From Acidobacteriota bacterium (GTDB taxonomy: Bacteria > Acidobacteriota > Terriglobia > Bryobacterales > Bryobacteraceae), in contig JAFLBB010000007.1 of assembly GCA_017304135.1 (NCBI GenBank), forward strand, positions 7,404 through 71,403: 64,000 nt of DNA, written 5' to 3'. This document shows positions 32,777-50,037 of this stretch, piece after piece. The number at the start of each line of letters is the position of its first letter. Position 1 is the first letter of the stretch. Below the pieces are notes generated by a model that saw only the letters and a program-made list of their open reading frames with translations, was not told the DNA's origin and searched no databases. The position numbers were made by a program, and so were the translations under genes.

Positions 32777-32781
32777 GACGT

Positions 32782-33339: not shown

Positions 33340-33430
33340 AAGGGGACGGCGCCAACACCAGCCAGCGACGAGGATAGCCCTGATGCGTAGAGGGAGTCAA
33401 CGCGCGCAGCGCCGCCACGAATCCGAGAGC

Positions 33431-33838: not shown

Positions 33839-33916
33839 AGTGAGTCTCCTCTCGCGGCGGATAGTATGTCCGAGGAACATACGAAGACGAGCGGAGACTC
33901 GGATTTCGCCCGCCCG

Positions 33917-35332
33917 CTATTTCTTCCCGAGTCCGTCACCCGGCTTAGGCGGCGGGAACGGGTAGGTATCGGGGACCACTTTGACGCCTGTGGTGAACTT
34001 ATGCGGATACTTCATCCCGGAATCGTAGGTAAGCTCAACAAAGTAAGCCGTGTAACCGGAAGCAGGCTTGGGCGCCGAGGCGACGTACTTATCTTTGACC
34101 GGCGTGAGCGGGGAGGACTGCCAGCAGTTCTTGGTCGTCGTCAGCCGGAAGTCGCGCGCATTGGGGTTGGTGCACTGCCACAGCAGTACCTCCTTTGGCG
34201 AACCTGCCGGGCCTGAGAAGTTGGTCACCTCGATGGCGCCGTTCTTCTTGATCTGGAATTTGAAGTCGGGCCGCGGGCGGTTGCCGGCAATGGAGGCGAG
34301 GAAGGCGGTGAGCGTTTGGGGGACGTCGGAGGGACTCAGGTTGTGGCGCGTGTTGGGAACGTAGCGAAGGTGCTTTTCGCCGGAGAGCTGGTCGAAGTAA
34401 AACTGCGAGCTATCGGGCAGGAAGAAGTCATCACCCGAGGCGTTGATGATGAGCTTGGGCATCGTGAGGCGGTCACGGTATTCGAACGGCTCGACGATCT
34501 TCATGAGGTTCTTGTATTGCGAGGTGCCCATCCAATCCATGATGCGATTGTCGGTGTAGTCCTGAATGGCCGGAGCCCAGAAGCCATAGGCGCGCCAATG
34601 GTGGACGAAGCTGGGGACGATGTTCAGCAGGTCGATCACCAGAGGCGCGATGGCGACTACACGCTTGTCGACGGCGGCGGTGGTCCAGGTGGTCCAGCCG
34701 CGCTTGGAGGCGCCGGAGACGGCGAACTTGTCCACGGTGAGCGCGCCACCCTCGGGCGTTTTTGAGAAGGCGGTGATCGCATCCATGGCGCGGACGGCGG
34801 CCTTGGTCATCGGCAGGCGGGCAGGCCAGCGCTCATCGCCCGTGCGAAGGTACTTGTCCCAGGTGTAGGCGATCAGGGCGTCTTCGGTGCGGTTCCGTGC
34901 GGCCGGGTCGTCCAGGAACCGCAGGGTCTGGTTGGGGACGTTGCGAAGTTCGCCCACCACCATGCCGGTTTCATTGGCGATGGAGAGTAGCATGGCGTCG
35001 GGCCGCTCCGGCGCCGGGCGGCCGTTGGCGCTGCCGGTGATGAACAGCAGCCCGGTGGTGGTCTTCACGTTCTTGGGGCGGATGACGGTGAGCCAGTGCT
35101 TCCACAGAGGGCGGTCCACTTCGGCGGCGGTGAGCCAGGTTTGCGAGGCCATGTCGAGCACGGCGACCTGCGCGCCGCTGACCTCCTTCTTTGACGCGAC
35201 CTCCCATTTGTAGGCGGGGTCGGGCGTTGCGACGTAGCGGTCCAGCGCGGTCTTCGCGGAGGCGGCGTGGAGGGGACGAGGGGCCGCAAGCAGCGTGAGC
35301 GCGGCGAGGCAGGAAAGAAGAATTGAGCGCAT
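33917..35332 (-). CDS. secreted PhoPQ-activated pathogenicity-related (PqaA-type) hydrolase-like protein
   Basis: Signal peptide MRSILLSCLAALTLLAAPRPLHAA. 471 aa with GASKRGWTTW nucleophile-elbow-like segment. Call is from memory only. Confidence 0.45.
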   Translation of the reverse strand: MRSILLSCLAALTLLAAPRPLHAASAKTALDRYVATPDPAYKWEVASKKEVSGAQVAVLDMASQTWLTAAEVDRPLWKHWLTVIRPKNVKTTTGLLFITGSANGRPAPERPDAMLLSIANETGMVVGELRNVPNQTLRFLDDPAARNRTEDALIAYTWDKYLRTGDERWPARLPMTKAAVRAMDAITAFSKTPEGGALTVDKFAVSGASKRGWTTWTTAAVDKRVVAIAPLVIDLLNIVPSFVHHWRAYGFWAPAIQDYTDNRIMDWMGTSQYKNLMKIVEPFEYRDRLTMPKLIINASGDDFFLPDSSQFYFDQLSGEKHLRYVPNTRHNLSPSDVPQTLTAFLASIAGNRPRPDFKFQIKKNGAIEVTNFSGPAGSPKEVLLWQCTNPNARDFRLTTTKNCWQSSPLTPVKDKYVASAPKPASGYTAYFVELTYDSGMKYPHKFTTGVKVVPDTYPFPPPKPGDGLGKK

Positions 35333-35410
35333 GCAGTGACCATTATGCCTGGAGGCGCGCCCGTGGCGGAGGCATGACGCGACAAAACGGGAAGATAACC
35401 GTTGCGAGGG

Positions 35411-35431
35411 TTGTCAATACTTTATTGACAA
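35411..35431. promoter_or_regulatory. perfect palindrome TTGTCAATA-CTT-TATTGACAA in a divergent promoter region
   Basis: 9-bp arms are exact reverse complements. Each arm contains a TTGACA -35-like hexamer. Followed by an A-rich tract; lies between the divergent PqaA-like and PEP-CTERM genes. Confidence 0.4.
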
Positions 35432-35552
35432 GAAAAAAGTACTGGGACTCTCAATCCGCCTGTGGTACGTGACTCTTCCACAAGTAGAGGTTTGAATAAA
35501 ACAGTGAGCATTCTCGGAAGGGGAGTGCCGCCCAAATCGGAGGAGATTAGAA

Positions 35553-36194
35553 ATGAAAAAGTGGATGGTATTGCTGCCCCTGGCCGCGATGTGCGCGCAC
35601 GGGGCAATTATCGGAGTGAGCGGCCCCAACAGCACTCCTGGACAGGGGGTAACGGCCTGCCCGTCTACAGCAGCGTCTATCATCGCCGCGCCGGGGTCGG
35701 TCGTCGACGATGCTCCGGGCGCGACGAACTGTGCCCAGCAGGGCTTTGACGAAAAGCAGGGTGTCCTGCTAGCGGCGAACCTGAACACGGACGCGCCGGG
35801 CGCAAGCAACATTCTGGCGGGAACCTTGGTCAACAGCCACATGATCTTCCTGAACACCAATGGCAACGTGAATGTCCTGCACGACGGCGTGGTCTGGGAG
35901 TTTGATGGCCTCATCCTCGGCGTGATGTCGAACCAAAGCGGCACACTTGAGGCGAATTCCAGTGCTGCGTTGGGTGCCGCGGGCACGACGTATCCGGCCG
36001 CGTTTGGCAGCCGCGGGCTGGAATCACGCGACAGCTATTCGATCAACGGCCGCTTCCTGACAGTCAACATGCAGGTGACCGAACCGGGAGACTGGATTCG
36101 CGTGGTCACATCACCCGTTCCCGAACCCGGCACCTACGCGCTTATGGGCGCTGGCCTCATGGCGCTGGGCTTCCTGCGCCGCAGGAAGGCGTAA
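35553..36194 (+). CDS. PEP-CTERM sorting-domain secreted protein
   Basis: Signal peptide MKKWMVLLPLAAMCAHGA. C-terminal VPEPGTYALMGAGLMALGFLRRRKA. GGAGGAG Shine-Dalgarno upstream. Confidence 0.7.
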   Translation: MKKWMVLLPLAAMCAHGAIIGVSGPNSTPGQGVTACPSTAASIIAAPGSVVDDAPGATNCAQQGFDEKQGVLLAANLNTDAPGASNILAGTLVNSHMIFLNTNGNVNVLHDGVVWEFDGLILGVMSNQSGTLEANSSAALGAAGTTYPAAFGSRGLESRDSYSINGRFLTVNMQVTEPGDWIRVVTSPVPEPGTYALMGAGLMALGFLRRRKA

Positions 36195-36230
36195 GCGAAC
36201 CAACGAACTGAGAATCACGGCGCACCGGGC

Positions 36231-36264
36231 TTCGGCCTGGTGCGCTTTTTTTTGGCGGTAACTG
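36231..36264 (+). terminator. rho-independent terminator
   Basis: gcgcaccgggc-TTCG-gcctggtgcgc stem-loop (one mismatch) followed by TTTTTTTT. Confidence 0.7.
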
Positions 36265-36369
36265 GGTCATCGCCCTGGCTCCCTGACTTCCGCACAGTCC
36301 TCACCACTCCACCCGCGGTATCCTGTGCCCAGCCGGTGGCCACGAACGGTAAACCGGGGAGGTAAGTTC

Positions 36370-38421
36370 ATGCGACTCATGTTGGCGCTGCTGCTGGCGG
36401 CGGCGAGCCTTTCGGCCAAGCGTCCGATCACACACGAAGATGTCTGGACGATGAAGCGAGTCGGCGTCCCGGTCGTAAGTCCCGACGGCCGCTGGGTTGT
36501 GGTGGGAGTTACCGAGCCCAGCTACGACGCGGCGAAGAACACTTCGGATTTGTGGATCGTCCCCTACGACGGCAGTGCGCCAGCCCGACGGTTGACGCAG
36601 AACAAGGGCGGCGAAGGCGACCCAGTGTTCTCTCCTGACTCGCGCACTCTCGCGTTTTCGGCCAAGCGCGAAGGCGATGAGACGGCGCAGATCTACCTGC
36701 TGCCGCTCGATGGCGGCGAGGCACGCCGCCTGACCAGCCTTTCCACCGGAGCTGCTTCACCCAAGTGGCGGCCGGACGGCAAAGCGATTCTCTTCCAGAG
36801 CAGTGTCTATCCTGGCGCCGCCGACGACGAAGCCAACCGCAAGGCGGCCGAAGAACGCAAAGCCCGCAAGTACAACGTGCGGACCTATGACAGCTTCCCC
36901 TTCCGCCACTGGGACCGCTGGCTCACCGATCAACGGCCGCACATCTTTGTGCAAGAGCTGGCCGGAGGCGCGGCGCGCGACCTGCTGGCCGGAACGAAGT
37001 TCATCACCCAGCCCGGCTTCAGCGGCCTCATCGGACCCGGCGGCGAGGATCTGCAACCGGTTTGGTCGCCCGACGGCCGCGAAATCGTCTTCACGGCAGT
37101 CACGGCGCAGGATCGCTCGGTGCGCGAGCGTGTACCTTCGCACCTTTACCGCATCCCCGCCACCGGCGGCGAACCTGTGGCCATTACCTCAGGTGGGGAT
37201 CGCTATTCCGACCCGCAATTCCGGCCCGACGGCAAGGCGCTCTACGCATCGCAGGAGCGTGGCGAGCCGCTGTACAGCCTGACGCGGCTGGCCCGGCTCG
37301 ATTGGCCGCCGGCGGCCGCCGCGGCGCCGAAGCTCATCACGGGATCATGGGACCGCTCCGTGACCAACGTCACCTTTTCCGCCGACAGCCGCACGGCCTA
37401 CATCACGGCCGAGGACGAAGGGCTGGGCAAGATCTTCCAGGTGAATGCCGACGGCGGCACGGTGAGCGTGCTCTCGAAAGCCACCGAGGGCATGTATGGC
37501 GGCGTAGTGTCAGCCAGCGGGCGTGCCGCCCTGGCGGCGCGCTGGGGCGCAATGACGAAGCCCGACAATGTGGCCGCCATCGGGCCCGACGGCCAGCACC
37601 GCTTGCTCACCGACTTCCACAGCGCGCAAACCGCCGACCTCGACTGGGCGCCGCCCAAACACTTCTGGTTCACCGCCAAGAACGGCAAACGCATCCACAG
37701 CCTCGTCATTCTGCCGCCGGGCTTCGACGCCTCGCGCAAGTATCCCGTCGTCATCTTCCCGCACGGAGGCCCGCACAACATGACGGGCGACCAGTTCTTC
37801 TTCCGCTGGAACTACCATCTGCTCACCACGCCTGGCTACGTGCTGCTGATGACCAACTACACCGGCTCCACCGGCTTCGGCGAGAAGTTCGCCGCCGACA
37901 TTCACTCCGACATTCTGCGCGGCCCGGCCGGTGAAATCGAAGAAGCCATCGATGCGGCAGTGAAGGAATTTCCCTTCCTCGACGCCACGCGACAGGCGGC
38001 TGCCGGGGCAAGCTATGGCGGCTACCTGATGAACTGGTTCGAGGGCAACACCAAACGCTTCCGCTGCCTGGTGAACCACGCCGGACTCACCGACAACGCC
38101 ACCATGTGGGGCTCCACCGACGGCGCCTACTATTGGGAACTGCGCAACGGCGGGCCCGTGTGGGAAGGCGGCGGGGCATGGCGCGACCAGAGCCCGGCCA
38201 CCTATGCCGGCAAGTTCTCCACGCCCATGCTGGTGACGCACGGCGAGCGCGACTACCGCGTGCCGGTGAGCCAGGGCTATGAGATCTACAAGCTGCTGCA
38301 GCGCCGCGAGGTGCCGTCGCGGCTGGTCATCTTCCCCGATGAGAACCACTGGGTGCTCAGCGGCGAAAACGCGCGCGTGCACATGAAGGAAGTGCTCGAC
38401 TGGCTGAAGAAATACCTGTAG
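36370..38421 (+). CDS. S9 family serine peptidase (acylaminoacyl-peptidase/prolyl oligopeptidase type) with N-terminal beta-propeller
   Basis: Signal peptide [16 protein letters not shown]. TolB-like propeller repeats ([29 protein letters not shown]). Catalytic GASYGGY nucleophile elbow, plus downstream Asp and His. Confidence 0.85.
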
Positions 38422-38464
38422 CGGGCTGACACGCGGGCTCGCCGCACCGTATCCTGGACGGACG

Positions 38465-39847
38465 ATGCGTTGGCCTCTCTGTCTTCCACTCGCGCTTCTG
38501 CCGCTGTCCGTGATGGCGCAGGACTGGCCCCGGTTTCGCGGTCCCAACGGCTCCGGCGTGCTCGACACGCCTGGTTTGCCCGTTGAGTTCGGACCGGTGA
38601 AAAACCTGGCCTGGAAAGCAGCCGTGCCCTATGGGCAGTCCTCCCCCATTGTCGCCGGCGGGCGCGTCTTCCTCACTGCCAGTGAAGGCGACAAGCTGAT
38701 CACGCTCGCCTTCGACGCCGCCACGGGACGCGAAGCCTGGCGGCGCGAGGTGACGCGTGCACATTCGCACAAGACGTATAAGGCGAACGATCCCGCCTCG
38801 CCCACGCCCGCCGCCGATGCCCGCAACGTCTACGCCTTCTTCCCCGACTTCGGCCTCATCGCCTATTCGCACGACGGCAAGGAACTGTGGCGCCAACCGT
38901 TGGGTCCGTTTGAGAACTTTTATGGCATGTCGTCGTCGCCCATCGTCGCCAGCGGTATGGTCGTGTTGCTCTGCGATCAGGCCAAGGGATCGTATCTGCT
39001 GGCGCTGGACGCGGCGACGGGCAAGCAGCGTTGGAAACGCGAGCGGCCGCAGGCCAACATCGGCTGGGGTGTGCCGATCGTGGCCGGCGACCAGTTGATC
39101 GCCGTGGGTTCGACACGCGTCGACTCCTACCATCTGGCCACCGGCGAGCCGCGCTGGTGGACGCCTGTGGCTTCTCAGGGGTCGATGGGAACCCCGGTGG
39201 CGCAGGGCGAGACGCTGTTTGTGACCACGCTCGGCAACGACGAACCGATGCTGCCGTCGTTTGAGTCCACCGTGGCGCAGTATGACCAGGACAAGGATGG
39301 GCGCCTCTCCGTGCAGGAGTTCGCCAAGGACAAGGACCTCGGCGAGCACTTCGGCTGGGTCGACACAAACAAGGACAACCAGATCGAAGCGGCCGAATGG
39401 AACCTGGCGCGCAGCTACGGCATGGGCGAGCACGGGGCGATGGCGATCCCGCTCAACGGCCGCGGGCGCGTGGAAAGCACGGCCTTCCGCTGGCGCTTCC
39501 GCCGCAACGTGCCCTATGTGCCTTCGCCGGTGCTCTACCAGGGCGTGTTCTACATGGCGAAGTCCGGCGGCATCGTGACGACGCTCGATCCGGCGACAGG
39601 CGCCCTGCGCAAACAGGGCCGTGCCAGTAGCGCGCCGGGCGATTACTACGCCTCTCCCGTGGCCGGCGACGGCAAGGTCTACCTCGTAAGCCAGGAGGGC
39701 AAGGTGAGTGTGCTCAAAGCGGGCGCCGAGTGGGAGGTGCTGGCCGTGAACGATCTGGGCGATGAGTGCTCGGCCACGCCCGCGCTGAGTAACGGGCGGC
39801 TGTTTGTGCGCACGCGCGGGTGGTTGTGGGGGTTCCAGCAGCGCTAA
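38465..39847 (+). CDS. secreted PQQ-like beta-propeller repeat protein with an inserted EF-hand pair
   Basis: Signal peptide. Repeated W-x-…-SSP/TP-V propeller motifs. Two canonical EF-hand loops: [12 protein letters not shown] and [12 protein letters not shown]. Confidence 0.65.
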
Positions 39848-39865
39848 CCGCGCGGCATATGGCGT

Positions 39866-40150
39866 TTACCCGCTCCGTGCAAGACGGTCATACTCTGCGT
39901 GCGTACCGATCCAGACCCACGTTACGGTGTCATCGCTCAGTCGTCCCAGTGCGCGGTGGTGATCGCCAACTCGAATAGTGAACTGGTCTGTCGTGCCCTG
40001 AAGTCGCCGGAAACGAAGCGAGGGATGGAGGTGATTTCGCCTCCAGAGACGGTAATTCTTGATCGCCAGTTCCTGAACAGGTTCCGGCAGCGCGCGAAAC
40101 AGTAGCCAGAATCGCCGCGTAGCGGCCGATCTCATGGCCGCGCGGGCCAC
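39866..40150 (-). CDS. type II toxin-antitoxin system RelE/ParE family toxin
   Basis: About 90 aa and basic. C-terminal FTIRVGDHHRALGRLSDDTVTWVWIGTHAEYDRL matches the RelE/ParE 'YRiiY…vl.ighRkdvY' pattern. Start overlaps the upstream antitoxin gene. Confidence 0.55.
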   Translation of the reverse strand: MARAAMRSAATRRFWLLFRALPEPVQELAIKNYRLWRRNHLHPSLRFRRLQGTTDQFTIRVGDHHRALGRLSDDTVTWVWIGTHAEYDRLARSG

Positions 40151-40344
40151 TCCTTGAGCAGACCTGCGCGCGATTCGGCTTCCGCCTCGGCGAATAGAGC
40201 ATCCAGTTTCCCGGCGGCGGCATCCTTGTCCATCTGCCGGTCCCAGAGTTCCTGGTCACGCTCGCGCACCCATTCGGCAAGGCTGCGGAATTCCTCGGGT
40301 GTGAGACTGTCAATCGCCTGTTCGATTTGCTCGACACGGCTCAT
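40132..40344 (-). CDS. putative antitoxin / addiction-module component
   Basis: MSRVEQIEQAIDSLTPEEFRSLAEWV…, about 70 aa and acidic. Shaped like TIGR02574-type addiction-module antitoxins; overlaps the toxin start. Confidence 0.45.
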   Translation of the reverse strand: MSRVEQIEQAIDSLTPEEFRSLAEWVRERDQELWDRQMDKDAAAGKLDALFAEAEAESRAGLLKEWPARP

Positions 40345-40603
40345 GAGAGCAGTGTACCACCGCCATATCCACCCCACGCCGCGCCCTCCTTACGCGGAGT
40401 GTAGTGATCTACGCTCTCTCTCGGAGGGGCCGAAGCCTCCCCTTCGGCACGGCCCGCGGCCTGCCGCCTGTAGGGCTGGCCACTGCCCAGTCGCTGCCGG
40501 TGTGGTCACCGTTCCAGTACACGGATCTGACTTCGAAAATGGGACCTTGCGCTCCGCATTCGAAATCGCCACAATGATGGATTATTCAGCAGGAAATAGC
40601 ATC

Positions 40604-41110
40604 ATGCTTGGCCATCCATCATACTGGCTCGCCTGCACCGTATTGGTGCAAGCGGTAAGCGCTCAACCCGTCACACCACAAATCAAGACGATCGCAAACG
40701 CCGCAAGCTATGCGGACAGTGTTTCGTCCGGGTCGCTTGTGACCCTCACTGGCCAGAACTTGGCCGCCGCGACCTGCCTTGCCCAGGACGGCCTGTTCCC
40801 CGACGACCTCTGCGGTGTTCAGGTCGAGGTGAACGGCGGGCGGATTCCGCTGCTGTTTGTAAGTTCAGGCCAAATCAATGCTGCCCTGCCCTATGTAACC
40901 GGTCCGGCGCGCCTGAAGGTGGTGAACAACGGCGCTGCGAGCGCGGAGTTCAACACCGAGATCAAACCGGCGGCGCCGGGAATCTTCTTCCAATCGAACC
41001 TCTACGCCGCGGCGTTGCTGGGCGACTACTCGATCCTGCAACCGACATACACGGCCCGCACAAACGGTGCAAAGAGCATCCTCCAGCTCTACGAGCTTGT
41101 TGAAAAATGA
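40604..41110 (+). CDS. secreted Ig-like (TIGR03437-like, Solibacter-type) domain protein, probably a gene fragment
   Basis: Signal peptide MLGHPSYWLACTVLVQAVSA. IKTIANAASYADS…GSLVTLTGQNL…VNGGRIPLLFVSSGQINAALPY pattern recalls the TIGR03437 Ig-like repeat. The ORF ends inside an inverted-repeat element. Confidence 0.4.
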   Translation: MLGHPSYWLACTVLVQAVSAQPVTPQIKTIANAASYADSVSSGSLVTLTGQNLAAATCLAQDGLFPDDLCGVQVEVNGGRIPLLFVSSGQINAALPYVTGPARLKVVNNGAASAEFNTEIKPAAPGIFFQSNLYAAALLGDYSILQPTYTARTNGAKSILQLYELVEK

Positions 41111-41252
41111 TTCTCTGATGTTAGGAGGTGGAATCTGCCTGAAGAACTTCGCACAGAATTGACCTACAACGCGTCGAATCGAACGCGGCAGGCATTTGCT
41201 ATCCCCTGATCAGAGATCATTCTGCGGCGTGTTCGAGTTTTTCAACAAGCTC
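41093..41252. repeat. imperfect inverted repeat (~27/44-bp arms, ~90-bp spacer) forming a large hairpin or MITE-like element
   Basis: Left arm gagcttgttgaaaaa+tgattctctgat (41093-41119). Right arm atcagagatcat+17 nt+tttttcaacaagctc (41209-41252). The 15-bp outer segments are exact reverse complements. Confidence 0.5.
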
Positions 41253-41552
41253 CTAGCCGCGGTGCTTCAACCAACGCTCGCACACGAACTTGGACACGCC
41301 TTGGGCCGCGGACCAACTGGTGCGCACTCGATCTCTGACAAGCACGTTATGTACAGATTCGTTGATGCAGGTCCGAGGGCCACCTCCGCATTCGAGGGCG
41401 CGCATGATCGCTTGATCTATGGCCTCCCATATGGCTACAATCTGTCGAATACGTTTGAGGGAGCAAGTGCGCCTGCGCTGAAAACCGCTGCCGCACCGCA
41501 GATCAAGGCTGTGCAGCCGGATTACTCGCTTGCGCACGGACCCGTTCAGTAG
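41196..41552 (+). pseudogene. metzincin-like zinc-binding/Met-turn fragment (HELGHALGRGPTGAHS…HVMY), probably a remnant of a disrupted metalloprotease gene
   Basis: The ORF starts inside the right arm of the inverted repeat. It carries HExxH and a Met-turn like matrixin C-termini, but lacks any N-terminal catalytic-domain sequence. Confidence 0.3.
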
Positions 41553-41677
41553 AACTGTGCCAGCACGTTCGGGTCCTGTTGCGGCATGGCCTGGTGCAGG
41601 TTGCGCTCGGAACCGTTTCACAACTCCTGGGCAGCCGGGCACCGCCATATCGCCGCCTAACCATCCCTCCCCACGCA

Positions 41678-41697
41678 TAGTGTAATGATTTACACTA
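41678..41697. promoter_or_regulatory. perfect palindrome TAGTGTAA-TGAT-TTACACTA abutting the dnaE2 start codon
   Basis: 8-bp arms are exact reverse complements. Ends 1 nt before GTG 41698. Candidate operator. Confidence 0.4.
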
Positions 41698-44600
41698 GTG
41701 GTCGTGAGCCCCCCCTACATCCCGCTCGTCACCACCAGTTGGCACTCCATCCTCGACTCGACCATGTCCCCGCAGGTCATCGCCGCCGCGGCCGAGGCCT
41801 GCGCCATGCCGGCCGTGGGGCTGGCTGACGTCGATTCGCTCTCCGGCATGGTCGCGTTTCACAAAGCCGCGCGGGCCAAGGGCGTCCATCCCGTGGTCGG
41901 CGCGCGCGTGCGCCTCACCGGGTTCGGCGAGGCGCCGATGCGCTGCGCGTTGCTCGTGCAAAACGCCGCCGGCTACCGCAACCTCTGCCGCCTCCTCACG
42001 CGCGGAGCCTCGCGCGACAACATCGCCACGCTCGCCGAAGGGCTCATCTGCCTCTACCTGCCCGGCAACCCGGCCTCGCAAACCGTGCTCAGCTCCGTGC
42101 GCGAGCTGTTCGAGCGCAGCTTCGCCCTCGCCCTCTCGGTGCACACCGAGGAGGCGCGGCGCTCGGCGAAATCGTACATCGAGGCTGGCCGGCGCATGAT
42201 GGCCCCGCTGGTCACCGTGGCCGAGTCGCACTACCTCACGCCCGAAGACCGCGAACTCTACGACGTGCTCGCCTCCATGCGCACGCTGACGATGCTGAAG
42301 CAACAGCATCCGGACAAGCTCCCCGCCTCGGGCGCGTTTCACTTTCACACGCAGCAGGAGATGCAGCGCGCCTTCGCCCACCTGCCGCAGGCGCTCGCCA
42401 ACACCGAACGCATCGCCGAGCGCTGCCAGTTTGAACCGCCGCTGGGCGACCTCCACTTCCCCGACTTCCCCGCCCCGGCCGGCGCCGACCACATGCTCAT
42501 GCTGCGCCAGTTGTGCGAGGCGGGCATGGCTCGCCGCTACGGCACGCCGAAGCGCGAGGCATGGGAGCGGCTGGAGCGCGAGTTGAAAACGATCGCCGAA
42601 ACCGGCTACCAGGATTACTTCCTCATCTTTTCCGACATCGTGCGCTGGGCCAACGAACACGGCATCGAAACGCTGGCCCGCGGCAGCGCCGCCGGCAGCC
42701 TCGTCTGCTACGCGCTCGGCATCTCCAACGTCTGCCCGTTCCGCTTCGGCCTCTGCTTTGAGCGCTTCCTGAACAAGGAGCGCATGTCGTTCGCCAAGCT
42801 CGCCGACATCGATCTCGACCTGCCGTGGGACAAGCGCGACGAAGTGGTCGCCTATGCCTTCGACAAATACGGCGGCGGCAAAACCCACCCGCTCGGTGGC
42901 CGCGTAGCCATGATCGGCGCGCTGAACACCTTCCAGGGCCGCTCGGCCGTCGCCGACATCGCCAAGGTGTATGGCGTCCCCGAACGCGAGGTGCGGCGCT
43001 TCACCGAATACCTGCCCTCGTTCGTTGGCGATCCGCTGGCCGTACTCGACCGCATTCCCGAATGCAGGGACCTGCCCGTGACGCAGGAGCCCTATGCGTC
43101 GGCCCTCAAAATGGCCTGGCGCGTCGATGGCGTGCCGCGCCACCGCATGATGCACCCCTGCGGTCTCGTAATTTCGCACACGCCCGTCGAAGATCGCATG
43201 CCGCTCTTCCTGAGCGCCAAGGGCCTGCCCACCACGCAGTATGCAATGGACGACGTCGAAGAGCTCGGACTGCTGAAGATGGACCTGCTCGGCCAGGCGG
43301 GCCTCTCCGTGCTGCGCGACGCTGTGGCCAACGTGCGCTCGAGCCGCGGCGTCGAGGTGAAGGTGGAAGACGCCGATTGGGAGGACGGCGAAACCTGGGA
43401 GGCCATTGCCACGGGCAACGCGCGCGGCGTGTTTCACATTGAGTCGCCGGCAATGACCGGCTTGTTAGTCATGAGTAACTGCCGCGATATTGATTGCCTG
43501 ACGGCGGTCGAGTCCATCATCCGCCCTGGCGCGGCCAACGAGGGCAAGAAGCGCGCCTTTGCGCGGCGGCATCAGGGCCTGGAGCCGGTGGACTATGCGC
43601 ATCCGTCGCTCGAACCGCTGCTCGCCGACACCTACGGCCTGATGGCTTACGAGGAGCACATTCTGCTCGTGGCCAATGGCTTCGCCGGTGTGCCCTGGGG
43701 CCGCGCGGATCTGCTGCGGCGCGCGCTCGTGAAGAACAAAGACAAGTCGAAGATCGCCGAATATGGGGCCGAGTTCCGCGCCTGCGCCGCACGCATGGGC
43801 CGCAAACCGGAGGAGATCGAGGCCGTGTGGAAGTTACTCGAAGACTTTGCCGGGTATATGTTCAACAAGGCCCATTCGGCGGCTTATGCCGTGGAGGCGT
43901 TCCAAGGGGCCTGGATGAAGACGCGCTACCCGGTGGAGTTTCTCGCTTCCGTGTTATCGAACCGGCGCGGCTTTTACTCACCCATCTTGTATGCCCTGGA
44001 AACCCTGCGCTGCGGCGGCCGGTTCACCGTGCCGGACGTGCACCTCTCCGGCGAGCGCTGCGTGGTGGCCGGCGGCGCCGTCCGTCTGCCCCTGAGTTTC
44101 GTGAAGGGCCTGCGCGAGGAGACGGTCGAGCGGATTCACGAACGGCGGCCGTTTGAGGACGTGGGCGATTTCTTCCGCCGCGTTGAGCCCACGCGCGCCG
44201 AGTGGGTGGCGCTGCTCAAGGTGGGGGCGATGGGGGCGTTTGAGGAGCCGAGGGCGCGGCTGTTCTGGCGGCTGGCGCGGCTGGAGGCGGTGCACGCGCG
44301 CGCACGCGTGAGCCGGCACGAGGGGCTGCTGCTGAATCCCGAAGAGGCGGCCGAGGAAGCAGCCGGCGTGCGCGAGCACTTAGACGAGATGAGTAACTCG
44401 CCCAACCCGTCCTGGGAGCATGAGTTACTCGGATTTCCGGTAAGCGTGCATCCGCTCGATTACTACGGCCCGGGCGTCGACTGGGCGCGCTATGTTCCGG
44501 CGGCCGAAGCGCAGCGGCGCCTGGATGAGGAGATCGAGGTCTGCGGCCTGATCGTGTGCGACCGCCATCACACCACCGAGCGCGGCCCGATGAAGTTCCT

Positions 44601-44799
44601 CACCCTGGCTGACCGCTCGGGCTTTGTCGAGGTGGCCCTGTTTTCCGACGCCTACCGCCGCTTCGGCCACGCCACCACGCAACCCGTCGTGGCCGTGCGC
44701 GGCCTCGTCGACCCCTTCGACAATCGCAAAGGCGGCGTGATCAACGGCGCCATCGTGCGCGCTCCGGCCAAGGTACGGGCGCTGGGACGGGCCGGCTAA
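41698..44799 (+). CDS. dnaE2: error-prone DNA polymerase (DnaE2-type DNA polymerase III alpha subunit)
   Basis: 1033 aa, which is DnaE2 length (DnaE1 is over 1150 aa). N-terminal PHP domain (YIPLVTTSWHSILDS…) and polymerase core motifs (HPCGLVIS; NKAHSAAYA). GTG start; an in-frame TGA lies 12 nt upstream. Confidence 0.8.
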   Translation: MVVSPPYIPLVTTSWHSILDSTMSPQVIAAAAEACAMPAVGLADVDSLSGMVAFHKAARAKGVHPVVGARVRLTGFGEAPMRCALLVQNAAGYRNLCRLLTRGASRDNIATLAEGLICLYLPGNPASQTVLSSVRELFERSFALALSVHTEEARRSAKSYIEAGRRMMAPLVTVAESHYLTPEDRELYDVLASMRTLTMLKQQHPDKLPASGAFHFHTQQEMQRAFAHLPQALANTERIAERCQFEPPLGDLHFPDFPAPAGADHMLMLRQLCEAGMARRYGTPKREAWERLERELKTIAETGYQDYFLIFSDIVRWANEHGIETLARGSAAGSLVCYALGISNVCPFRFGLCFERFLNKERMSFAKLADIDLDLPWDKRDEVVAYAFDKYGGGKTHPLGGRVAMIGALNTFQGRSAVADIAKVYGVPEREVRRFTEYLPSFVGDPLAVLDRIPECRDLPVTQEPYASALKMAWRVDGVPRHRMMHPCGLVISHTPVEDRMPLFLSAKGLPTTQYAMDDVEELGLLKMDLLGQAGLSVLRDAVANVRSSRGVEVKVEDADWEDGETWEAIATGNARGVFHIESPAMTGLLVMSNCRDIDCLTAVESIIRPGAANEGKKRAFARRHQGLEPVDYAHPSLEPLLADTYGLMAYEEHILLVANGFAGVPWGRADLLRRALVKNKDKSKIAEYGAEFRACAARMGRKPEEIEAVWKLLEDFAGYMFNKAHSAAYAVEAFQGAWMKTRYPVEFLASVLSNRRGFYSPILYALETLRCGGRFTVPDVHLSGERCVVAGGAVRLPLSFVKGLREETVERIHERRPFEDVGDFFRRVEPTRAEWVALLKVGAMGAFEEPRARLFWRLARLEAVHARARVSRHEGLLLNPEEAAEEAAGVREHLDEMSNSPNPSWEHELLGFPVSVHPLDYYGPGVDWARYVPAAEAQRRLDEEIEVCGLIVCDRHHTTERGPMKFLTLADRSGFVEVALFSDAYRRFGHATTQPVVAVRGLVDPFDNRKGGVINGAIVRAPAKVRALGRAG

Positions 44800-44838
44800 A
44801 GCCCGTCCCCCGCCCCCCGCTTGCTATACTCGCTGTTC

Positions 44839-45849
44839 ATGCGAGTTGGCATCATCGGCACGGGCGCGATCTCGAACATGCACGCCCGGGCCTACAAGAA
44901 CATCGGCTTTGAAATTGTCTGCTGCACCGACGTCTATGAGCCCGCCGGGCGGGCCTTCGCCGAGCGCAACCACTGCGAATTCCTGCCCTCTTACGAAGAC
45001 GTCTGCCGCCACCCCGGCATTGATTACGTCGACCTCTGCACCTTCCCCGATTTCCGCATGCAGCCGCTGGAAATCTGCGCTTCAGTGAAGCGGCACATTC
45101 AGGTGCAAAAGCCGCTTTCCACCAACCTCGAAACGGCGCGCAAGATGGTCGACACGGCCAAAGCCGCGGGCATCCAGTTGGGCGTCGTCAGCCAGCACCG
45201 CTTCGACGACTCCACACTCTTCCTCGCCAAGGCACTGCAGGACGGCCGGCTGGGCAAGATTCTGCAGGCTGACGCCTATGTGAAGTGGTACCGCTCAGCC
45301 GAGTATTATTCGCGGCCGATCAAGGGCAGTTGGGCCACCGAAGGCGGCGGCGCGCTGATCAACCAGGCCGTGCACCAGGTGGACGTGTTGCTTTACCTCG
45401 TGGGCGCGGTGAAGGAAGTGTTCGGCATGTGGCAGTTAGGGGCGCTGCACAAGATCGAAAGCGAAGACGTGGTGACGGCCATGCTGCGTTATGCCAACGG
45501 CGCGCAGGGCGTGCTGCAGGCCTCGACGGCGTTCTGGCCCGGTTACTCCGAGCGCATCGAAATCCACGGCACCAAGGGCACGGCGGTGATCACGGGCGAC
45601 AAGCTCACGGCCTGGGATGTGAAGGACGACGAGGGCGATCCGGCCCCCGTGGAGTCGCTCGTCATGTCGGGCTCGTCTGACCCGATGGCGATTCCGGTGA
45701 CTCCGCTCGAACGGCAGTTCACGAACTTCGCCGAAGCGATCAGGACGGGCGGCAAACCGCTGGTGTCGGGCGAAGAAGGCTACCGGGCTTTGGAACTGGT
45801 GCTGAGCGTGTATCGCTCGTGCCGGGAGGGTCAGAAGGTCACGCTGTAA
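44839..45849 (+). CDS. Gfo/Idh/MocA family oxidoreductase
   Basis: MRVGIIGTGAISNMHARAY… Rossmann N-terminus. Also …DLCTFPDFR… and …HQVDVLLYLVG…. Confidence 0.8.
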   Translation: MRVGIIGTGAISNMHARAYKNIGFEIVCCTDVYEPAGRAFAERNHCEFLPSYEDVCRHPGIDYVDLCTFPDFRMQPLEICASVKRHIQVQKPLSTNLETARKMVDTAKAAGIQLGVVSQHRFDDSTLFLAKALQDGRLGKILQADAYVKWYRSAEYYSRPIKGSWATEGGGALINQAVHQVDVLLYLVGAVKEVFGMWQLGALHKIESEDVVTAMLRYANGAQGVLQASTAFWPGYSERIEIHGTKGTAVITGDKLTAWDVKDDEGDPAPVESLVMSGSSDPMAIPVTPLERQFTNFAEAIRTGGKPLVSGEEGYRALELVLSVYRSCREGQKVTL

Positions 45850-45872
45850 TGGCCGCGGGGAAGGCGGGGGCG

Positions 45873-46817
45873 ATGGGCGTGGCATGGTCGGTGCGCGTGC
45901 CGGCATCGAGCGCGAACCTGGGACCTGGATTTGACGCGCTGGGCCTGGCGCTGTCGTCCTATCTCACCTGCCGCTTCCGGCGCGCCAATCGCTTGACGAT
46001 CCGCGTCACTGGCCGTGATGCCGGACAGATCTCCACGGGTGAGGACAATTTGATTTGGCAGACGGCGCTCGATGTGGCGCGCGATACCGGAGCCACGCTG
46101 CCGCCGATCGAACTCGAGGTCGACAACGCCATTCCGCTCGGCAAAGGCATGGGATCGAGCGCCGCCGCCCTCACCGCCGGCGTAGTGATTGCGGATCGCC
46201 TGCTCGAACTCGGCTGGCCAGCGCATCTGATCCTGAACGAAGCGGCGCGCATCGAAGGGCATCCCGACAACGTCGCCGCCTGCGTGCTGGGCAGTGTGGT
46301 GGCCAGCGCCATCGATTCCGGCGGCGTGGCGCGCGCCGTCAGACTGGAACTGCCGGAGAACTTCCTGGTTTCCGTTGTCGTGCCCGATTTTCCGCTGCCG
46401 ACGAAGGAAGCTCGGCGGGCGCTGCCGGAAAGCTATTCCAAAGCCGACACCGTCTTCAACGTACAGCGGGCGGCGCTGCTCACAGCGGCGTTGGCCACGG
46501 GCTCGACCAGTGCCTTCCCGGCGGCCTTCGAAGACCGCCTCCACCAACCCTATCGCGAAGCGCTTGTGCCGGGGCTGGCCGACATCCTGAAGCTGCGCGC
46601 TCCGGGGCTGCTTGGCTGCACGCTCAGCGGAGCCGGCCCGAGCGTGCTCGTCTTCTACGAAAAGGGCCACGAGCAGGTGTGCGATCTTGTGCGGCAGATC
46701 TTTGCCCATCACGGGCGGCAGTCCGAGGTGATCCACGCTGGAATCGACCGGCACGGATATACTCTCGTTGAGGATCACGCCCCTTGGCCCACGCCCACCA
46801 CCGCCGCACGTTTCTAG
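45873..46817 (+). CDS. thrB: homoserine kinase
   Basis: VRVPASSANLGPGFDALGLAL (GHMP kinase motif I) and PLGKGMGSSAA (ATP-binding motif II). Start chosen at ATG 45873 with a GGAAGGCGGGGG Shine-Dalgarno. Confidence 0.85.
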   Translation: MGVAWSVRVPASSANLGPGFDALGLALSSYLTCRFRRANRLTIRVTGRDAGQISTGEDNLIWQTALDVARDTGATLPPIELEVDNAIPLGKGMGSSAAALTAGVVIADRLLELGWPAHLILNEAARIEGHPDNVAACVLGSVVASAIDSGGVARAVRLELPENFLVSVVVPDFPLPTKEARRALPESYSKADTVFNVQRAALLTAALATGSTSAFPAAFEDRLHQPYREALVPGLADILKLRAPGLLGCTLSGAGPSVLVFYEKGHEQVCDLVRQIFAHHGRQSEVIHAGIDRHGYTLVEDHAPWPTPTTAARF

Positions 46818-48088
46818 GATCGCTCGCCGCTCCCTTTGCCGCGCCGTTTGCCCAGCCGCTGACAGCGCAGTCCAACGCGCTCGACGCCTACATCCCGCGT
46901 CTTGAAAAGGCGCTCTACGAAAACGCCAATCCGTTCTGGTTCCCGCGCTCGCTTGACCGCGAGCGGGGCGGCTATGCGATCAACCACAACGCGCAGGGGC
47001 TCCCCAACGGACGGTCGACGAAGATGATCGTGACGCAGGCGCGCATGGTCTGGTATTTCTCGCGGATGGTGCGGGCCGGCATGACCAGGCCCGCCACAAA
47101 GGCGCAGTTCACCGAAGCCGCAGAACACGGGCTGCGGTTCCTGCGCACGAAGATGTGGGACCAGAAGCACGGCGGCTACTACTGGGAGGTGGAGCGCGAC
47201 GGCGCGCCGCGGCGCGACCAGAAGCACCTCTACGGGCAGTCGTTCGCGCTGTATGCGCTGAGCGAGATGGCCATCGCGCTGCGCAGCCGCGAGGCGCTGG
47301 CGGCGGCCACCGAGTTGTTCCACCTGCTCGAAAAACACTCGCACGATGCCCAAAACGGCGGTTACGTGGAATGTTTCGAGGCCGACTGGTCAGAGACACC
47401 GGAGGCCAAGCCGGGCCCCATGGGTCCATCGCGCCTGAAGCTGATGAACACGCACCTCCACCTGATGGAGGCCATGACCACCTTCTACCAGGCGTCGATG
47501 CTGCCCATGGCCCGCGAACGGCTGCTCGAGCTCATGACCATTGAGTCAAACACCGTGGTCCGCAAGGACATCGCCGCCTGCGCCGACAAGTACACACGCG
47601 ATTGGAGGCGCCTCACCGAAGGCGACTACGCGCGCGTGAGCTACGGTCACGATCTCGAAAATGTCTGGCTCCTCATGGAGGCGGCCAAAGCGGCCGGCGT
47701 GTCCGATGCGCCTCTGTATGACCTGTACAGAGTGAACTGGGCCTACTGCCTGAAGCATGGCTGGGACGCGGCGCACGGGGCGTTTTGCGATAGCGGGCTG
47801 CCCGGCCGGACGGCCGACCGCCGCCAAAAGGTCTGGTGGGTACAGGCCGAGGTGCTCGTCTCGGCGCTCAAGATGTACCGGCTCACAGGCGAGGCGGTGT
47901 ACCGCGAAGTCTTCGAGAGGACCTGGGCATTTGTCGAATCGAAGCTGATCGATTGGAAGACTGGCGAGTGGCACTCCGAGGTCACCGCCGAAGGCCAGCC
48001 GCGCGGCGAAAAGGCGCAAATGTGGAAGGCCGGCTACCACAACGGCCGGGCGCTGGTGGAGTGCCTGGCCGAGTTGCGGCGGGCCTAA
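46784..48088 (+). CDS. N-acyl-D-glucosamine 2-epimerase (AGE) superfamily protein with Tat-like N-terminus
   Basis: HRRTFLGSLAAPFA Tat-like motif. (α/α)6-barrel repeats typical of AGE/cellobiose-2-epimerase/YihS proteins (…LYGQSFALYALSE…; …VWWVQAEVLVSALKMYRLTGE…; …AGYHNGRALVE…). Overlaps the thrB end by 34 nt. Confidence 0.65.
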   Translation: MAHAHHRRTFLGSLAAPFAAPFAQPLTAQSNALDAYIPRLEKALYENANPFWFPRSLDRERGGYAINHNAQGLPNGRSTKMIVTQARMVWYFSRMVRAGMTRPATKAQFTEAAEHGLRFLRTKMWDQKHGGYYWEVERDGAPRRDQKHLYGQSFALYALSEMAIALRSREALAAATELFHLLEKHSHDAQNGGYVECFEADWSETPEAKPGPMGPSRLKLMNTHLHLMEAMTTFYQASMLPMARERLLELMTIESNTVVRKDIAACADKYTRDWRRLTEGDYARVSYGHDLENVWLLMEAAKAAGVSDAPLYDLYRVNWAYCLKHGWDAAHGAFCDSGLPGRTADRRQKVWWVQAEVLVSALKMYRLTGEAVYREVFERTWAFVESKLIDWKTGEWHSEVTAEGQPRGEKAQMWKAGYHNGRALVECLAELRRA

Positions 48089-48119
48089 CGCGGCGGGCCC
48101 GAGCCGCGGCGCGTCCACC

Positions 48120-49037: not shown

Positions 49038-49044
49038 GGGGGCC

Positions 49045-50022: not shown

Positions 50023-50037
50023 GGCGGGCCTCCAGAA

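What the first reader, a model, noticed from the sequence alone, without database searches (positions are those of the whole stretch)
40604..41552. Two gene fragments (Ig-like TIGR03437-type domain; metzincin HExxH/Met-turn motif) separated by a ~160-bp inverted-repeat element
- The upstream ORF ends, and the downstream ORF begins, inside opposite arms of an imperfect inverted repeat (41093-41252).
- The outer 15 bp (gagcttgttgaaaaa / tttttcaacaagctc) are perfect reverse complements. The mirrored peptides …LYELVEK and …FEFFNKLL are a by-product of this.
- The downstream ORF has the zinc-binding and Met-turn end of a metzincin but no N-terminal catalytic region.
- This looks like a protease gene disrupted by a MITE-like or hairpin insertion, or a recombination scar.
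Basis: seen in the sequence. Interest (0 to 1): 0.5.

Follow-up and report, generated by a model that had tools for sequence, protein, structure and literature searches.

The report
IS5-type MITE between two gene remnants
The 160-bp inverted repeat is one copy of a small non-coding transposon (a MITE) found in many copies in soil bacteria; here it lies in a patch of decaying, strain-specific DNA and does not split a working protease gene, so the finding is real but ordinary.

Summary
41093-41107 and 41238-41252 are perfect 15-nt reverse complements, found nowhere else in the window. ORF1 stops and ORF2 starts inside the element.

The repeat is a MITE. The same termini, 115-145 nt apart, occur in more than 117 places in 43 assemblies against about 0.1 expected by chance. 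One genome holds up to 22 copies, with mostly unrelated flanks. Copies of the window's type carry 4-bp direct duplications (CTAG > CTAA > TTAG > TTAA), the Py-T-A-Pu target spectrum of IS5. The window copy is full length, flanked by CTAC and CTAG.

The idea of one protease gene split by the insertion is not supported.
- ORF1 is a secreted TIGR03437 protein cut at about position 130-140 of 225.
- ORF2 has no homologue among 1.84 billion proteins. Its metalloprotease matches are below threshold, and the third zinc-binding His is missing.
- Precise excision (160 + 4 nt) leaves the two ORFs in different frames.

Both ORFs and the MITE lie in a 1,223-bp, lower-GC segment flanked by 60-bp imperfect direct repeats. 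A roughly 90%-identical relative lacks this segment; there the antitoxin gene lies 73 bp from dnaE2.

Verdict: a new member of a known kind, of low to moderate interest.

The parts
41093..41252 (.). 160-bp non-autonomous transposable element (MITE), full length. It has no coding capacity of its own and an asymmetric interior.
   Evidence: It aligns end to end with 160-163-bp copies from Solibacteraceae, Acidobacteriaceae and Terriglobales MAGs (A4; A6). The family has more than 117 loci in 43 assemblies. There is no Rfam match.
41093..41107 (+). Left terminal inverted repeat, GAGCTTGTTGAAAAA.
   Evidence: It is the perfect reverse complement of 41238-41252. The termini are invariant across the family, although 12 of these nt were fixed by the search pattern.
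41238..41252 (+). Right terminal inverted repeat, TTTTTCAACAAGCTC.
41089..41092 (.). Left copy of the 4-bp target-site duplication, CTAC. It differs by one base from the right copy. In ORF1's frame the TAC is read as Tyr; a CTAG here would have been ORF1's stop codon.
   Evidence: Family-wide, 81 of 89 GAG/GAA/CAG-class copies have identical flanking 4-mers, mostly CTAG, CTAA or TTAG.
41253..41256 (.). Right copy of the target-site duplication, CTAG. It is the only CTAG in the 1.22-kb segment.
   Evidence: CTAG occurs 21 times in the window against 211 expected.
40604..41110 (+). ORF1: signal peptide followed by a 3'-truncated TIGR03437 / IPT-TIG domain. The HMM match covers aa 30-152 (nt 40691-41059). 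The last 6 codons and the stop come from the MITE. GenBank annotates it as MBN8729510.1, an IPT/TIG domain-containing protein.
   Evidence: GC by codon position is 0.61/0.49/0.74, against 0.84-0.87 at the third position in neighbouring genes.
41196..41552 (+). ORF2: its first 19 codons are MITE sequence. The remaining 99 codons are an orphan sequence with HELGH (41283-41297) and a Met at 41349-41351. It may be a decayed remnant of a zinc metalloprotease gene.
   Evidence: Pfam M10 E 0.014, below cutoff. Best PDB hit acutolysin-C at E 0.29. No hits in two very large protein searches. Not called as a gene in any source. AlphaFold pLDDT 53.
40416..41638 (.). 1,223-bp strain-specific segment with lower GC (0.50-0.62, against 0.63-0.72 in the adjacent genes). 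It holds ORF1, the MITE and ORF2, and is absent from a relative that is about 90% identical.
   Evidence: Window 30427-40415 and 41639-52000 align to contiguous, overlapping L002 2-9999 and 9940-20322.
40356..40415 (+). Left copy of the 60-bp imperfect direct repeat flanking the segment. It contains a degenerate palindrome, GTGTAGTGATCTACGC (40399-40414).
41639..41698 (+). Right copy of the 60-bp direct repeat. It contains the palindrome GTGTAATGATTTACAC (41680-41695) immediately upstream of the dnaE2-like start.

Best explanation
The inverted repeat at 41093-41252 is a complete copy of a miniature inverted-repeat transposable element (MITE). It is a 160-bp non-coding transposon that cannot move by itself.

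**How it works (inferred from the family's anatomy).** A DDE transposase supplied in trans by a full-length insertion sequence of the IS5 type binds the GA(G/A)CTTGTTGAAAAA ends. It inserts the element at a Py-T-A-Pu tetranucleotide cut with a 4-bp stagger. Repair of that stagger leaves the 4-bp direct duplication, here CTAC/CTAG with one later substitution.

**Where it sits (shown).** The copy lies inside a 1.22-kb strain-specific segment of lower GC, between a ParE-type toxin-antitoxin pair and the dnaE2-like polymerase gene. That segment holds only remnants.
- ORF1 is the 5' two-thirds of a small secreted TIGR03437 (Ig-like) protein gene.
- ORF2 is an orphan stretch that may be the 3' end of a zinc metalloprotease gene.
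- ORF1's last six codons and stop, and ORF2's first 19 codons, are MITE sequence. The mirrored peptides are therefore side effects of translating the two terminal repeats.

**How the junction arose (inferred).** The two ORFs are not halves of one gene split by the insertion. My preferred history, at about 50%, is that the MITE mediated a deletion. This could be recombination between two copies or a transposase-made adjacent deletion. It would have joined the 5' part of gene A to the 3' part of gene B and left non-matching flanking 4-mers. The alternative, at about 35%, is a plain insertion at the only CTAG available, next to an older breakpoint.
For: **It belongs to a multicopy family.**
My estimate of the chance expectation for 24 fixed bases in 596 Gb is about 0.07-1.
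- That is 119 elements in 43 assemblies, up to 22 per assembly, with mostly unrelated flanks.

**The target duplication matches IS5.**
- The 4-mers just outside the 3+12...12+3 element are identical in 94 of 118 copies, and in 81 of 89 of the GAG/GAA/CAG classes.
- The spectrum is CTAG 53, CTAA 13, TTAG 10, TTAA 3.
- TTAG pairs with TTAG and CTAA with CTAA, so these are direct duplications and not part of the inverted repeat.
- IS5 duplicates Py-T-A-Pu, most often CTAG, then CTAA and TTAG (PMC5493358, read).

**The window copy is a typical, complete member.**
- It aligns end to end with family members and shares an internal core.
- The closest copy is in a Solibacteraceae MAG, L046.
- There it sits between the two halves of a DUF4372 + DDE_Tnp_1 transposase ORF. 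This looks like an insertion into a gene, although its flanking 4-mers also differ by one base (ACAG/ATAG).

**There is a hint of further copies in the source sample.** The Logan contig for this sample (L001, 100% identical to the window) ends at window 41122. That is exactly 30 nt (k-1 for k = 31) into the element (the 31-mer construction is from PMC12424806). This is what a repeat boundary at 41093 would produce.

**The locus is a strain-specific patch.** L002 and L003 are about 90% identical in nucleotide sequence, with the same gene order. In them the antitoxin gene lies 73 bp from dnaE2, and the 60-bp interval is duplicated around the window's extra 1,223 bp.

**ORF1 is truncated.** The TIGR03437 match covers model positions 1-130 of 225 and ends at aa 152 of 168. 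No frame to the right of the MITE matches TIGR03437.
Against: - No second copy lies in the 64-kb window, and the rest of this genome could not be searched.
- No near-identical copy was found anywhere. The best, L046, scores 186 of a possible 320 in a global alignment. Two exact-pattern scans of JGI metagenomes, built from this subfamily's left end and from its core, found nothing.
- No autonomous IS with these ends was found in the fetched loci. The IS5-type assignment therefore rests on the duplication spectrum alone. From memory, IS701-type elements share that target.
- Logan contigs of this sample are short (for example 2.9 kb), so the contig end is only suggestive.
- The deletion history is inference. 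The CTAC/CTAG mismatch could be a point mutation; 8 of 89 family copies also mismatch. CTAG is so rare here that an insertion had almost no other site to use.
Confidence: 0.85

Rival explanations
1. One gene, encoding an Ig-like domain followed by a metzincin protease, was split by a simple MITE insertion. ORF1 and ORF2 would be its collinear halves.
For: - Both ORFs are on the same strand and abut the element.
- If only the 160 bp are removed and both 4-bp copies kept, the two frames coincide.
- ORF2 has HELGH and a Met at adamalysin-like spacing.
Against: - A real excision removes 164 nt, which puts the ORFs one base out of frame.
- About 85-95 model positions of TIGR03437 are missing and are found in no frame downstream.
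- The whole N-terminal catalytic half of a metzincin is also missing.
- TIGR03437 is described by its own name as a C-terminal domain, so the domain order would be unusual.
- ORF2 has no homologue at E <= 0.001 among 5.8 billion word-filtered sequences or 1.84 billion fully scanned ones.
Confidence: 0.05
2. A plain MITE insertion into DNA that was already non-functional. ORF1 had been truncated earlier and ended at a TAG that formed the only CTAG target in the segment. The MITE landed there, and a later G-to-C change in the left duplication copy extended ORF1 into the element.
For: - CTAG is 10-fold under-represented, and the segment holds just one.
- About 17-20% of Py-T-A-Pu sites, with or without a MITE, are stop codons of ORFs of at least 80 codons.
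- A one-base TSD mismatch occurs in about 9% of family copies.
Against: It requires an unrelated earlier breakpoint to lie within about 30 nt of the insertion site. TIGR03437 homology ends between aa 152 and 162.
Confidence: 0.35
3. The hairpin is a functional structured RNA or a regulatory or terminator element, not a mobile element.
For: The window copy folds well on both strands (z -3.6 and -4.1). Acidobacterial copies share a conserved internal core.
Against: - There is no Rfam match at E <= 1.
- Across subfamilies only the terminal 15-bp stem is kept, with no conserved internal pairing.
- No T-run terminator lies at the element.
- Copies are scattered, multicopy and flanked by 4-bp direct duplications, which a transcribed regulatory motif would not produce.
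Confidence: 0.03
4. The inverted repeat is a chance match or an assembly artefact.
For: Only one copy lies in the window. The Logan contig breaks inside it.
Against: - 0 of 100 shuffles give two matches.
- The first 30 nt of the element are identical in the independent Logan assembly.
- The full element matches a family seen in long-read and short-read MAGs from many studies.
Confidence: 0.01

Closest known systems
MITEs mobilised by IS5-family (IS5-group) insertion sequences
   Same: - Short (about 145-170 bp) and non-coding.
- Terminal inverted repeats of at least 15 bp.
- Many dispersed copies per genome.
- A 4-bp direct target duplication with the Py-T-A-Pu spectrum and the same rank order as IS5 (CTAG, then CTAA and TTAG) (PMC5493358).
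   Different: - No autonomous partner with these ends was found.
- The terminal sequence GA(G/A)CTTGTTGAAAAA is not the IS5 end.
- The exact repeat sequence was not found in the searchable literature in this context.
- The acidobacterial members keep an asymmetric internal core of unknown role.
IS630 / Tc1-mariner-type MITEs (for example Correia- or RUP-like elements), which target CTAG or TA and duplicate TA
   Same: Small foldback elements that prefer TA-containing targets. CTAG is the commonest flank.
   Different: Under a TA duplication, the outer bases of the left and right 4-mers would vary independently. Here they co-vary as direct repeats: TTAG with TTAG (10 copies) and CTAA with CTAA (13 copies). 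The duplication is therefore 4 bp, not 2 bp.
Integron attC sites
   Same: Imperfect inverted repeats of about 60-140 bp lying between gene cassettes.
   Different: - The GTT...AAC order at the ends is the reverse of the attC R''/R' order (RYYYAAC...GTTRRRY, recalled from memory).
- The copies have target duplications and are scattered through chromosomes.
- No integrase is nearby.
Solibacter-type TIGR03437 (Soli_cterm) / IPT-TIG domain proteins
   Same: ORF1 matches the first 130 of 225 model positions at E 1.7e-28 and has a signal peptide.
   Different: ORF1 is truncated. The domain follows the signal peptide directly instead of closing a larger protein. The only sequence at E <= 0.001 in the 5.8-billion-sequence collection is itself.
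Metzincin zinc metalloproteases (Pfam Peptidase_M10; adamalysins)
   Same: ORF2 has HELGHALG and a Met 22 residues after the first His, as in acutolysin-C.
   Different: - All scores are below threshold (15.7 bits against a 24-bit cutoff; PDB E 0.29).
- The third His ligand is replaced by Pro.
- There is no N-terminal catalytic half.
- There are no homologues.

Membership tests
MITE (non-autonomous DNA transposon) | Terminal inverted repeats | tested here: met
   15 of 15 perfect at 41093-41107 and 41238-41252. The same termini occur in all family copies.
MITE (non-autonomous DNA transposon) | Short direct target-site duplication flanking each copy | tested here: met
   Family-wide, 94 of 118 copies have identical 4-mers. 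The window copy has CTAC/CTAG, 3 of 4 identical.
MITE (non-autonomous DNA transposon) | Small size and no transposase gene | tested here: met
   The element is 160 bp. Only ORFs that run through it are present.
MITE (non-autonomous DNA transposon) | Multiple dispersed copies with unrelated flanks | tested here: met
   119 copies in 43 assemblies, up to 22 per assembly. Mean flank identity is 0.35, which is random level.
MITE (non-autonomous DNA transposon) | Multiple copies in this same genome | tested here: inconclusive
The Logan contig ends exactly k-1 = 30 nt into the element, which hints at further copies in the sample.
MITE (non-autonomous DNA transposon) | Insertion polymorphism: filled versus empty site for the element itself | tested here: inconclusive
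   No empty site was found among the fetched loci. The relative L002 lacks the whole 1.22-kb segment, not just the MITE.
IS5-family-derived MITE | 4-bp duplication at Py-T-A-Pu | tested here: met
   CTAG 53, CTAA 13, TTAG 10, TTAA 3, compared with the IS5 table in PMC5493358.
IS5-family-derived MITE | A cognate full-length IS with matching ends that encodes a DDE transposase | tested here: not met
   No pair of ends 0.4-3 kb apart enclosing a transposase occurs in about 0.9 Mb of fetched loci. Whole genomes could not be searched, so absence is not shown.
Metzincin metalloprotease (ORF2) | HExxHxxGxxH zinc site | tested here: not met
   ORF2 reads HELGHALGRGP. The third ligand position is Pro.
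Metzincin metalloprotease (ORF2) | Family HMM match above the curated threshold | tested here: not met
   Peptidase_M10 scores 15.7 bits against a cutoff of 24. Fragilysin scores 11 bits against 190.7.
Metzincin metalloprotease (ORF2) | Met-turn at conserved spacing after the zinc site | tested here: met
   The Met is 22 residues after the first His, as in acutolysin-C. On its own this is weak evidence.
TIGR03437 Soli_cterm domain protein (ORF1) | HMM match above the curated threshold | tested here: met
   99.9 bits against a cutoff of 29.05.
TIGR03437 Soli_cterm domain protein (ORF1) | Complete domain (225 model positions) | tested here: not met
   Only positions 1-130 are matched, and nothing further matches in any downstream frame.
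Structured RNA family | Conserved secondary structure with covariation, or an Rfam match | tested here: not met
   There is no Rfam hit. RNAalifold keeps only the terminal stem.

The most novel reading that the evidence does not exclude
The acidobacterial members of this MITE family carry a functional internal module. Their asymmetric core (CTTCGCnCAGAAATGGCCTACAACGCGnCGATC ... ATACATTTC) is better conserved than the subterminal arms across Solibacteraceae, Acidobacteriaceae and Terriglobales. It could be a promoter, a protein-binding site or a small RNA that the element spreads around genomes.

A second, less likely reading concerns the 60-bp repeats that bracket the 1.22-kb segment. Each contains a copy of the palindrome GTGTA-N6-TACAC that precedes dnaE2, the left copy being degenerate. 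The repeats might mark site-specific capture of foreign DNA at a possible SOS operator.
Probability: 0.12. Interest if true: 0.5.

Novelty: new member of a known kind. Interest (0 to 1): 0.25.

Why it matters
The result mainly helps annotation.
- GenBank's 187-aa IPT/TIG protein at this position is a truncated gene whose C-terminus and stop codon come from a transposon end.
- ORF2 should not be annotated as a protease.

The wider by-product is a MITE family that appears to be undescribed. It has IS5-like target choice and is abundant in Acidobacteriota MAGs. Elements sharing the same 12-nt end occur in Zixibacteria, Ignavibacteria and Gammaproteobacteria. Knowing its ends and duplication rule would help mask repeats, explain contig breaks in soil metagenome assemblies, and trace gene disruption and deletion in these genomes.

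Nothing here changes how transposons are understood to work.

Tried and rejected
- **Homologues of ORF2.** The word-indexed search of 5.8 billion proteins and full phmmer against 1.84 billion representatives found nothing. Exact look-ups of 10 N-terminal variants showed it is not called as a gene anywhere.
- **Homologues of ORF1.** Only itself was found. tblastn of both ORFs against all fetched DNA found no paralogues.
- **Structure of ORF2.** AlphaFold gave pLDDT 53, too low for a fold search.
- **Remainder of TIGR03437.** Other frames to the right of the MITE gave no match.
- **First genome scan.** The left end plus subterminal motif gave 0 hits. The second scan, with both ends, succeeded.
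- **Metagenome scans.** The subfamily's left end and its core both gave 0 hits. A viral scan with the end pair gave 0. blastn against plasmids gave only chance hits at E of 2 or more.
- **Autonomous IS.** No transposase lies between distant end pairs, and single ends are just degenerate MITE copies.
- **Empty sites.** None were found among the fetched loci.
- **Preference for stop codons.** 16 of 79 MITE sites are stop codons of long ORFs, against 17% of control Py-T-A-Pu sites, so there is no enrichment.
- **Coding signal in the conserved core.** Three-base periodicity is weak and the ATG is not conserved, so coding is not claimed.
- **Window minus-strand ORF.** I suspected that 41253-41678 resembled the N-terminal half of the L046 transposase. 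BLASTP gave E 24, so this was rejected.
- **Hybrid attL/attR pattern in the 60-bp repeats.** Identities by half (0.61-0.88) do not separate the models.
- **Outgroups to polarise the 1.22-kb indel.** The next relatives (65-67% DnaE2 identity) have different gene order.
- **Right-hand Logan contig.** The DnaE2 protein and the 141-aa minus-strand ORF are not on record.
- **attC reading.** Rejected on the orientation of the GTT/AAC ends.
Full report
**1. The observation**

The sequence facts are as described.
- GAGCTTGTTGAAAAA (41093-41107) and TTTTTCAACAAGCTC (41238-41252) are perfect reverse complements. Counting the four flanking bases, the match is 19 nt at 95%.
- At up to two mismatches these are the only occurrences in the 64-kb window. 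Dinucleotide shuffles give a mean of 0.05, and none of 100 reaches two matches.
- The whole interval 41085-41260 folds into one long imperfect hairpin on either strand (z -3.6 and -4.1). The right arm carries about 15-17 extra bases.
- ORF1 (40604-41110) ends ...LYELVEK* with its stop just inside the element.
- ORF2 (41196-41552) starts at a TTG inside the element and reads FEFFNKLL through the right arm.

The mirrored peptides are therefore a translation by-product of the terminal repeats. The same readings turn up in ORFs that cross other copies of the element.

**2. What the repeat is**

For 24 fixed bases in 596 Gb, my estimate of the chance expectation is about 0.07 at equal base use and below about 1 even for AT-rich genomes.

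The fetched loci hold 119 elements in 43 assemblies. Single Acidobacteriaceae or Terriglobales MAGs hold up to 22, 16 and 14. The flanks are mostly unrelated to each other, with a mean best flank identity of 0.35.

The bases just outside the element are informative. With the element defined as three bases plus the 12-mer at each end, the adjacent 4-mers are identical in 94 of 118 copies. For the GAG/GAA/CAG classes, to which the window copy belongs, the figure is 81 of 89. The spectrum is CTAG 53, CTAA 13, TTAG 10, TTAA 3.

TTAG pairs with TTAG and CTAA with CTAA, so these are direct duplications. They are not extensions of the inverted repeat, and they are not the TA duplication of IS630-type elements. 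IS5 duplicates Py-T-A-Pu, with CTAG most common, followed by CTAA and TTAG (PMC5493358, read).

The window copy aligns end to end with 160-163-bp members from Solibacteraceae, Acidobacteriaceae, Terriglobales and one Verrucomicrobiota-labelled MAG. It is flanked by CTAC (41089-41092) and CTAG (41253-41256).

Other checks:
- There is no Rfam family match.
- RNAalifold across subfamilies keeps only the terminal stem, so there is no sign of a conserved RNA fold.
- The exact end sequence appears in no relevant paper in the searchable library, and I found no description of MITEs in Acidobacteria.

**3. Limits of the MITE call**

- The window holds a single copy, and I could not search the rest of this genome.
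- The nearest copy found is in a Solibacteraceae MAG (L046) and is only moderately similar.
- Exact scans of JGI metagenomes for this subfamily found nothing.
- No autonomous IS with these ends lies in the roughly 0.9 Mb of fetched loci. The IS5-type label therefore rests on the duplication spectrum alone. From memory, IS701-type elements use a similar target.

One hint of further copies comes from the source sample. The Logan contig SRR13786854_23404 is 100% identical to window 30604-41122. It ends exactly 30 nt into the element. Logan contigs are built so that every 31-mer is unique within an accession (PMC12424806). A contig running into a repeat should therefore stop k-1 = 30 nt inside it. 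Contigs from this sample are short in general, so I treat this as suggestive only.

**4. The two ORFs**

ORF1:
- It is a real gene remnant, with a signal peptide followed by a TIGR03437 (Soli_cterm) match at E 1.7e-28.
- The match covers only model positions 1-130 of 225 and ends at residue 152 of 168. Pfam sees a TIG domain.
- Its only relative at E <= 0.001 is itself. GenBank lists it as MBN8729510.1, an IPT/TIG domain-containing protein from an Acidobacteria MAG.

ORF2:
- It is much weaker. Peptidase_M10 scores E 0.014 at 15.7 bits, below the 24-bit cutoff.
- The best PDB hit is the adamalysin acutolysin-C at E 0.29. The His-to-Met spacing is the same, but a Pro replaces the third His ligand.
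- It has no homologue in two very large protein searches, and no source calls it as a gene.
- The structure model is unusable, at pLDDT 53.
- Its GC by codon position (0.63/0.47/0.61) is compatible with old coding sequence but does not prove it.

I put the chance that ORF2 is a decayed metalloprotease remnant at roughly 40%.

**5. Are they one split gene?**

No.
- A true excision removes the element plus one duplication copy, 164 nt in all. This puts ORF1 and ORF2 one base out of frame. They look in frame only if both 4-bp copies are kept.
- None of the other reading frames to the right of the element matches TIGR03437.
- With a CTAG target, ORF1 would have ended at that TAG.

The point where ORF1 loses homology (between residues 152 and 162) lies within 10 codons of the element. 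The ORF2 motif begins 10 codons after the element. The two flanking 4-mers also differ. Together these facts favour a MITE-associated deletion that joined the 5' part of one gene to the 3' part of another, which I put at about 50%.

The alternative is a plain insertion next to an older breakpoint, at about 35%.
- CTAG is ten-fold under-represented in the window (21 observed, 211 expected), and the segment holds only this one. An insertion therefore had almost nowhere else to go.
- About 9% of family copies also have a one-base mismatch in the duplication.
- I tested whether these MITEs prefer stop codons. They do not: 20% of MITE sites against 17% of control sites.

**6. The wider locus**

A close relative shows that this is a strain-specific patch. 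Contigs L002 and L003 (ENA, PRJEB19935) are about 90% identical in nucleotide sequence and 96% identical in DnaE2 protein. They have the same gene order on both sides: Band_7, SnoaL, PhoPQ-related, PEP-CTERM, Tricorn/S9 peptidase, PQQ, antitoxin, then dnaE2, GFO/IDH/MocA, GHMP kinase and so on. In them the antitoxin gene sits 73 bp from dnaE2.

Window 30427-40415 aligns to L002 2-9999, and window 41639-52000 aligns to L002 9940-20322. The window therefore has an extra 1,223 bp (40416-41638) flanked by two diverged copies of a 60-bp interval.
- The two copies are 68% identical to each other and 75-79% identical to the single L002 copy.
- The extra segment has lower GC, 0.50-0.62 against 0.63-0.72 in the adjacent genes.
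- ORF1's third-position GC is 0.74, against 0.84-0.87 in its neighbours.

These values fit foreign or decaying DNA. I could not decide whether the window lineage gained the segment or the L002 lineage lost it. The next relatives have different gene order.

**7. Comparison with known systems, and verdict**

The element works like an IS5-type MITE. It meets the MITE criteria that I could test:
- terminal inverted repeats;
- a 4-bp duplication;
- no coding capacity;
- multicopy dispersal.

A cognate transposase was not found. It is not an attC site, because the end motifs run in the wrong order and copies are dispersed with duplications. It is not a known RNA family.

The split-protease part is not supported. 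This is a new member of a known kind. The family appears undescribed and is widespread in Acidobacteriota, which gives it some value for annotation and assembly work, but it is not surprising biology.

Noticed in passing
window 41680-41695; L002 9983-9998; L004 about 403-418; L005 about 5983-5998: A palindrome GTGTA-N6-TACAC lies directly upstream of the dnaE2-like (error-prone Pol III alpha) start in four acidobacterial lineages with 65-100% DnaE2 identity. The versions are GTGTAATGATTTACAC, GTGTAAAAATGTACAC and GTGTAAATATTTACAC. It may be an SOS/LexA-type operator. In the window it occurs only here, plus one degenerate copy at 40399-40414.
   Followed up: partly
window 40356-40415 and 41639-41698: A 60-bp imperfect direct repeat brackets a 1,223-bp segment that is absent from the roughly 90%-identical relative L002/L003. 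The mechanism is unresolved, as is whether this was a gain here or a loss there.
   Followed up: partly
window 39866-40377, minus strand: A ParE-like toxin (Pfam ParE_like, E 6.7e-9) overlaps a small antitoxin-like ORF. This looks like a toxin-antitoxin pair immediately left of the variable segment. It is conserved in L002.
   Followed up: no
L046 1982-3318 (Solibacteraceae MAG contig CAYUZM010000579.1): The copy most similar to the window's MITE (2568-2727) sits between the two halves of a DUF4372 + DDE_Tnp_1 transposase ORF. Its flanking 4-mers differ by one base (ACAG/ATAG). A second, degenerate copy lies at about 4312-4470 on the same 4.5-kb contig.
   Followed up: partly
alignment A6 (window 41093-41252 plus 17 family members), core around window 41145-41210: Acidobacterial members share an asymmetric internal core (CTTCGCnCAGAAATGGCCTACAACGCGnCGATC ... 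ATACATTTC) that is more conserved than the subterminal arms. It has no conserved fold and only weak three-base periodicity. Its role is unknown.
   Followed up: partly
loci L007, L011, L012, L023, L028, L033, L034, L037-L039, L043 and others: Elements from Zixibacteria, Ignavibacteria and an unclassified MAG share the 12-nt end core. They start GGG...CCC and have non-Py-T-A-Pu duplications of about 4-5 bp and unrelated interiors. They are probably a separate family using a related end.
   Followed up: no
whole window: CTAG is about ten-fold under-represented, with 21 observed against 211 expected from base composition. All four Py-T-A-Pu tetramers together occur only 70 times in 64 kb, so targets for this element are scarce.
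   Followed up: no
window 41698-44799 and neighbours: The dnaE2-like gene stands alone here and in L002. No adjacent gene carries a Y-family polymerase (imuB-type) Pfam domain. Upstream are the PQQ protein and the toxin-antitoxin pair; downstream is a GFO/IDH/MocA oxidoreductase. The N-terminal PHP motif reads TTSWHS, not the usual HxH.
   Followed up: no
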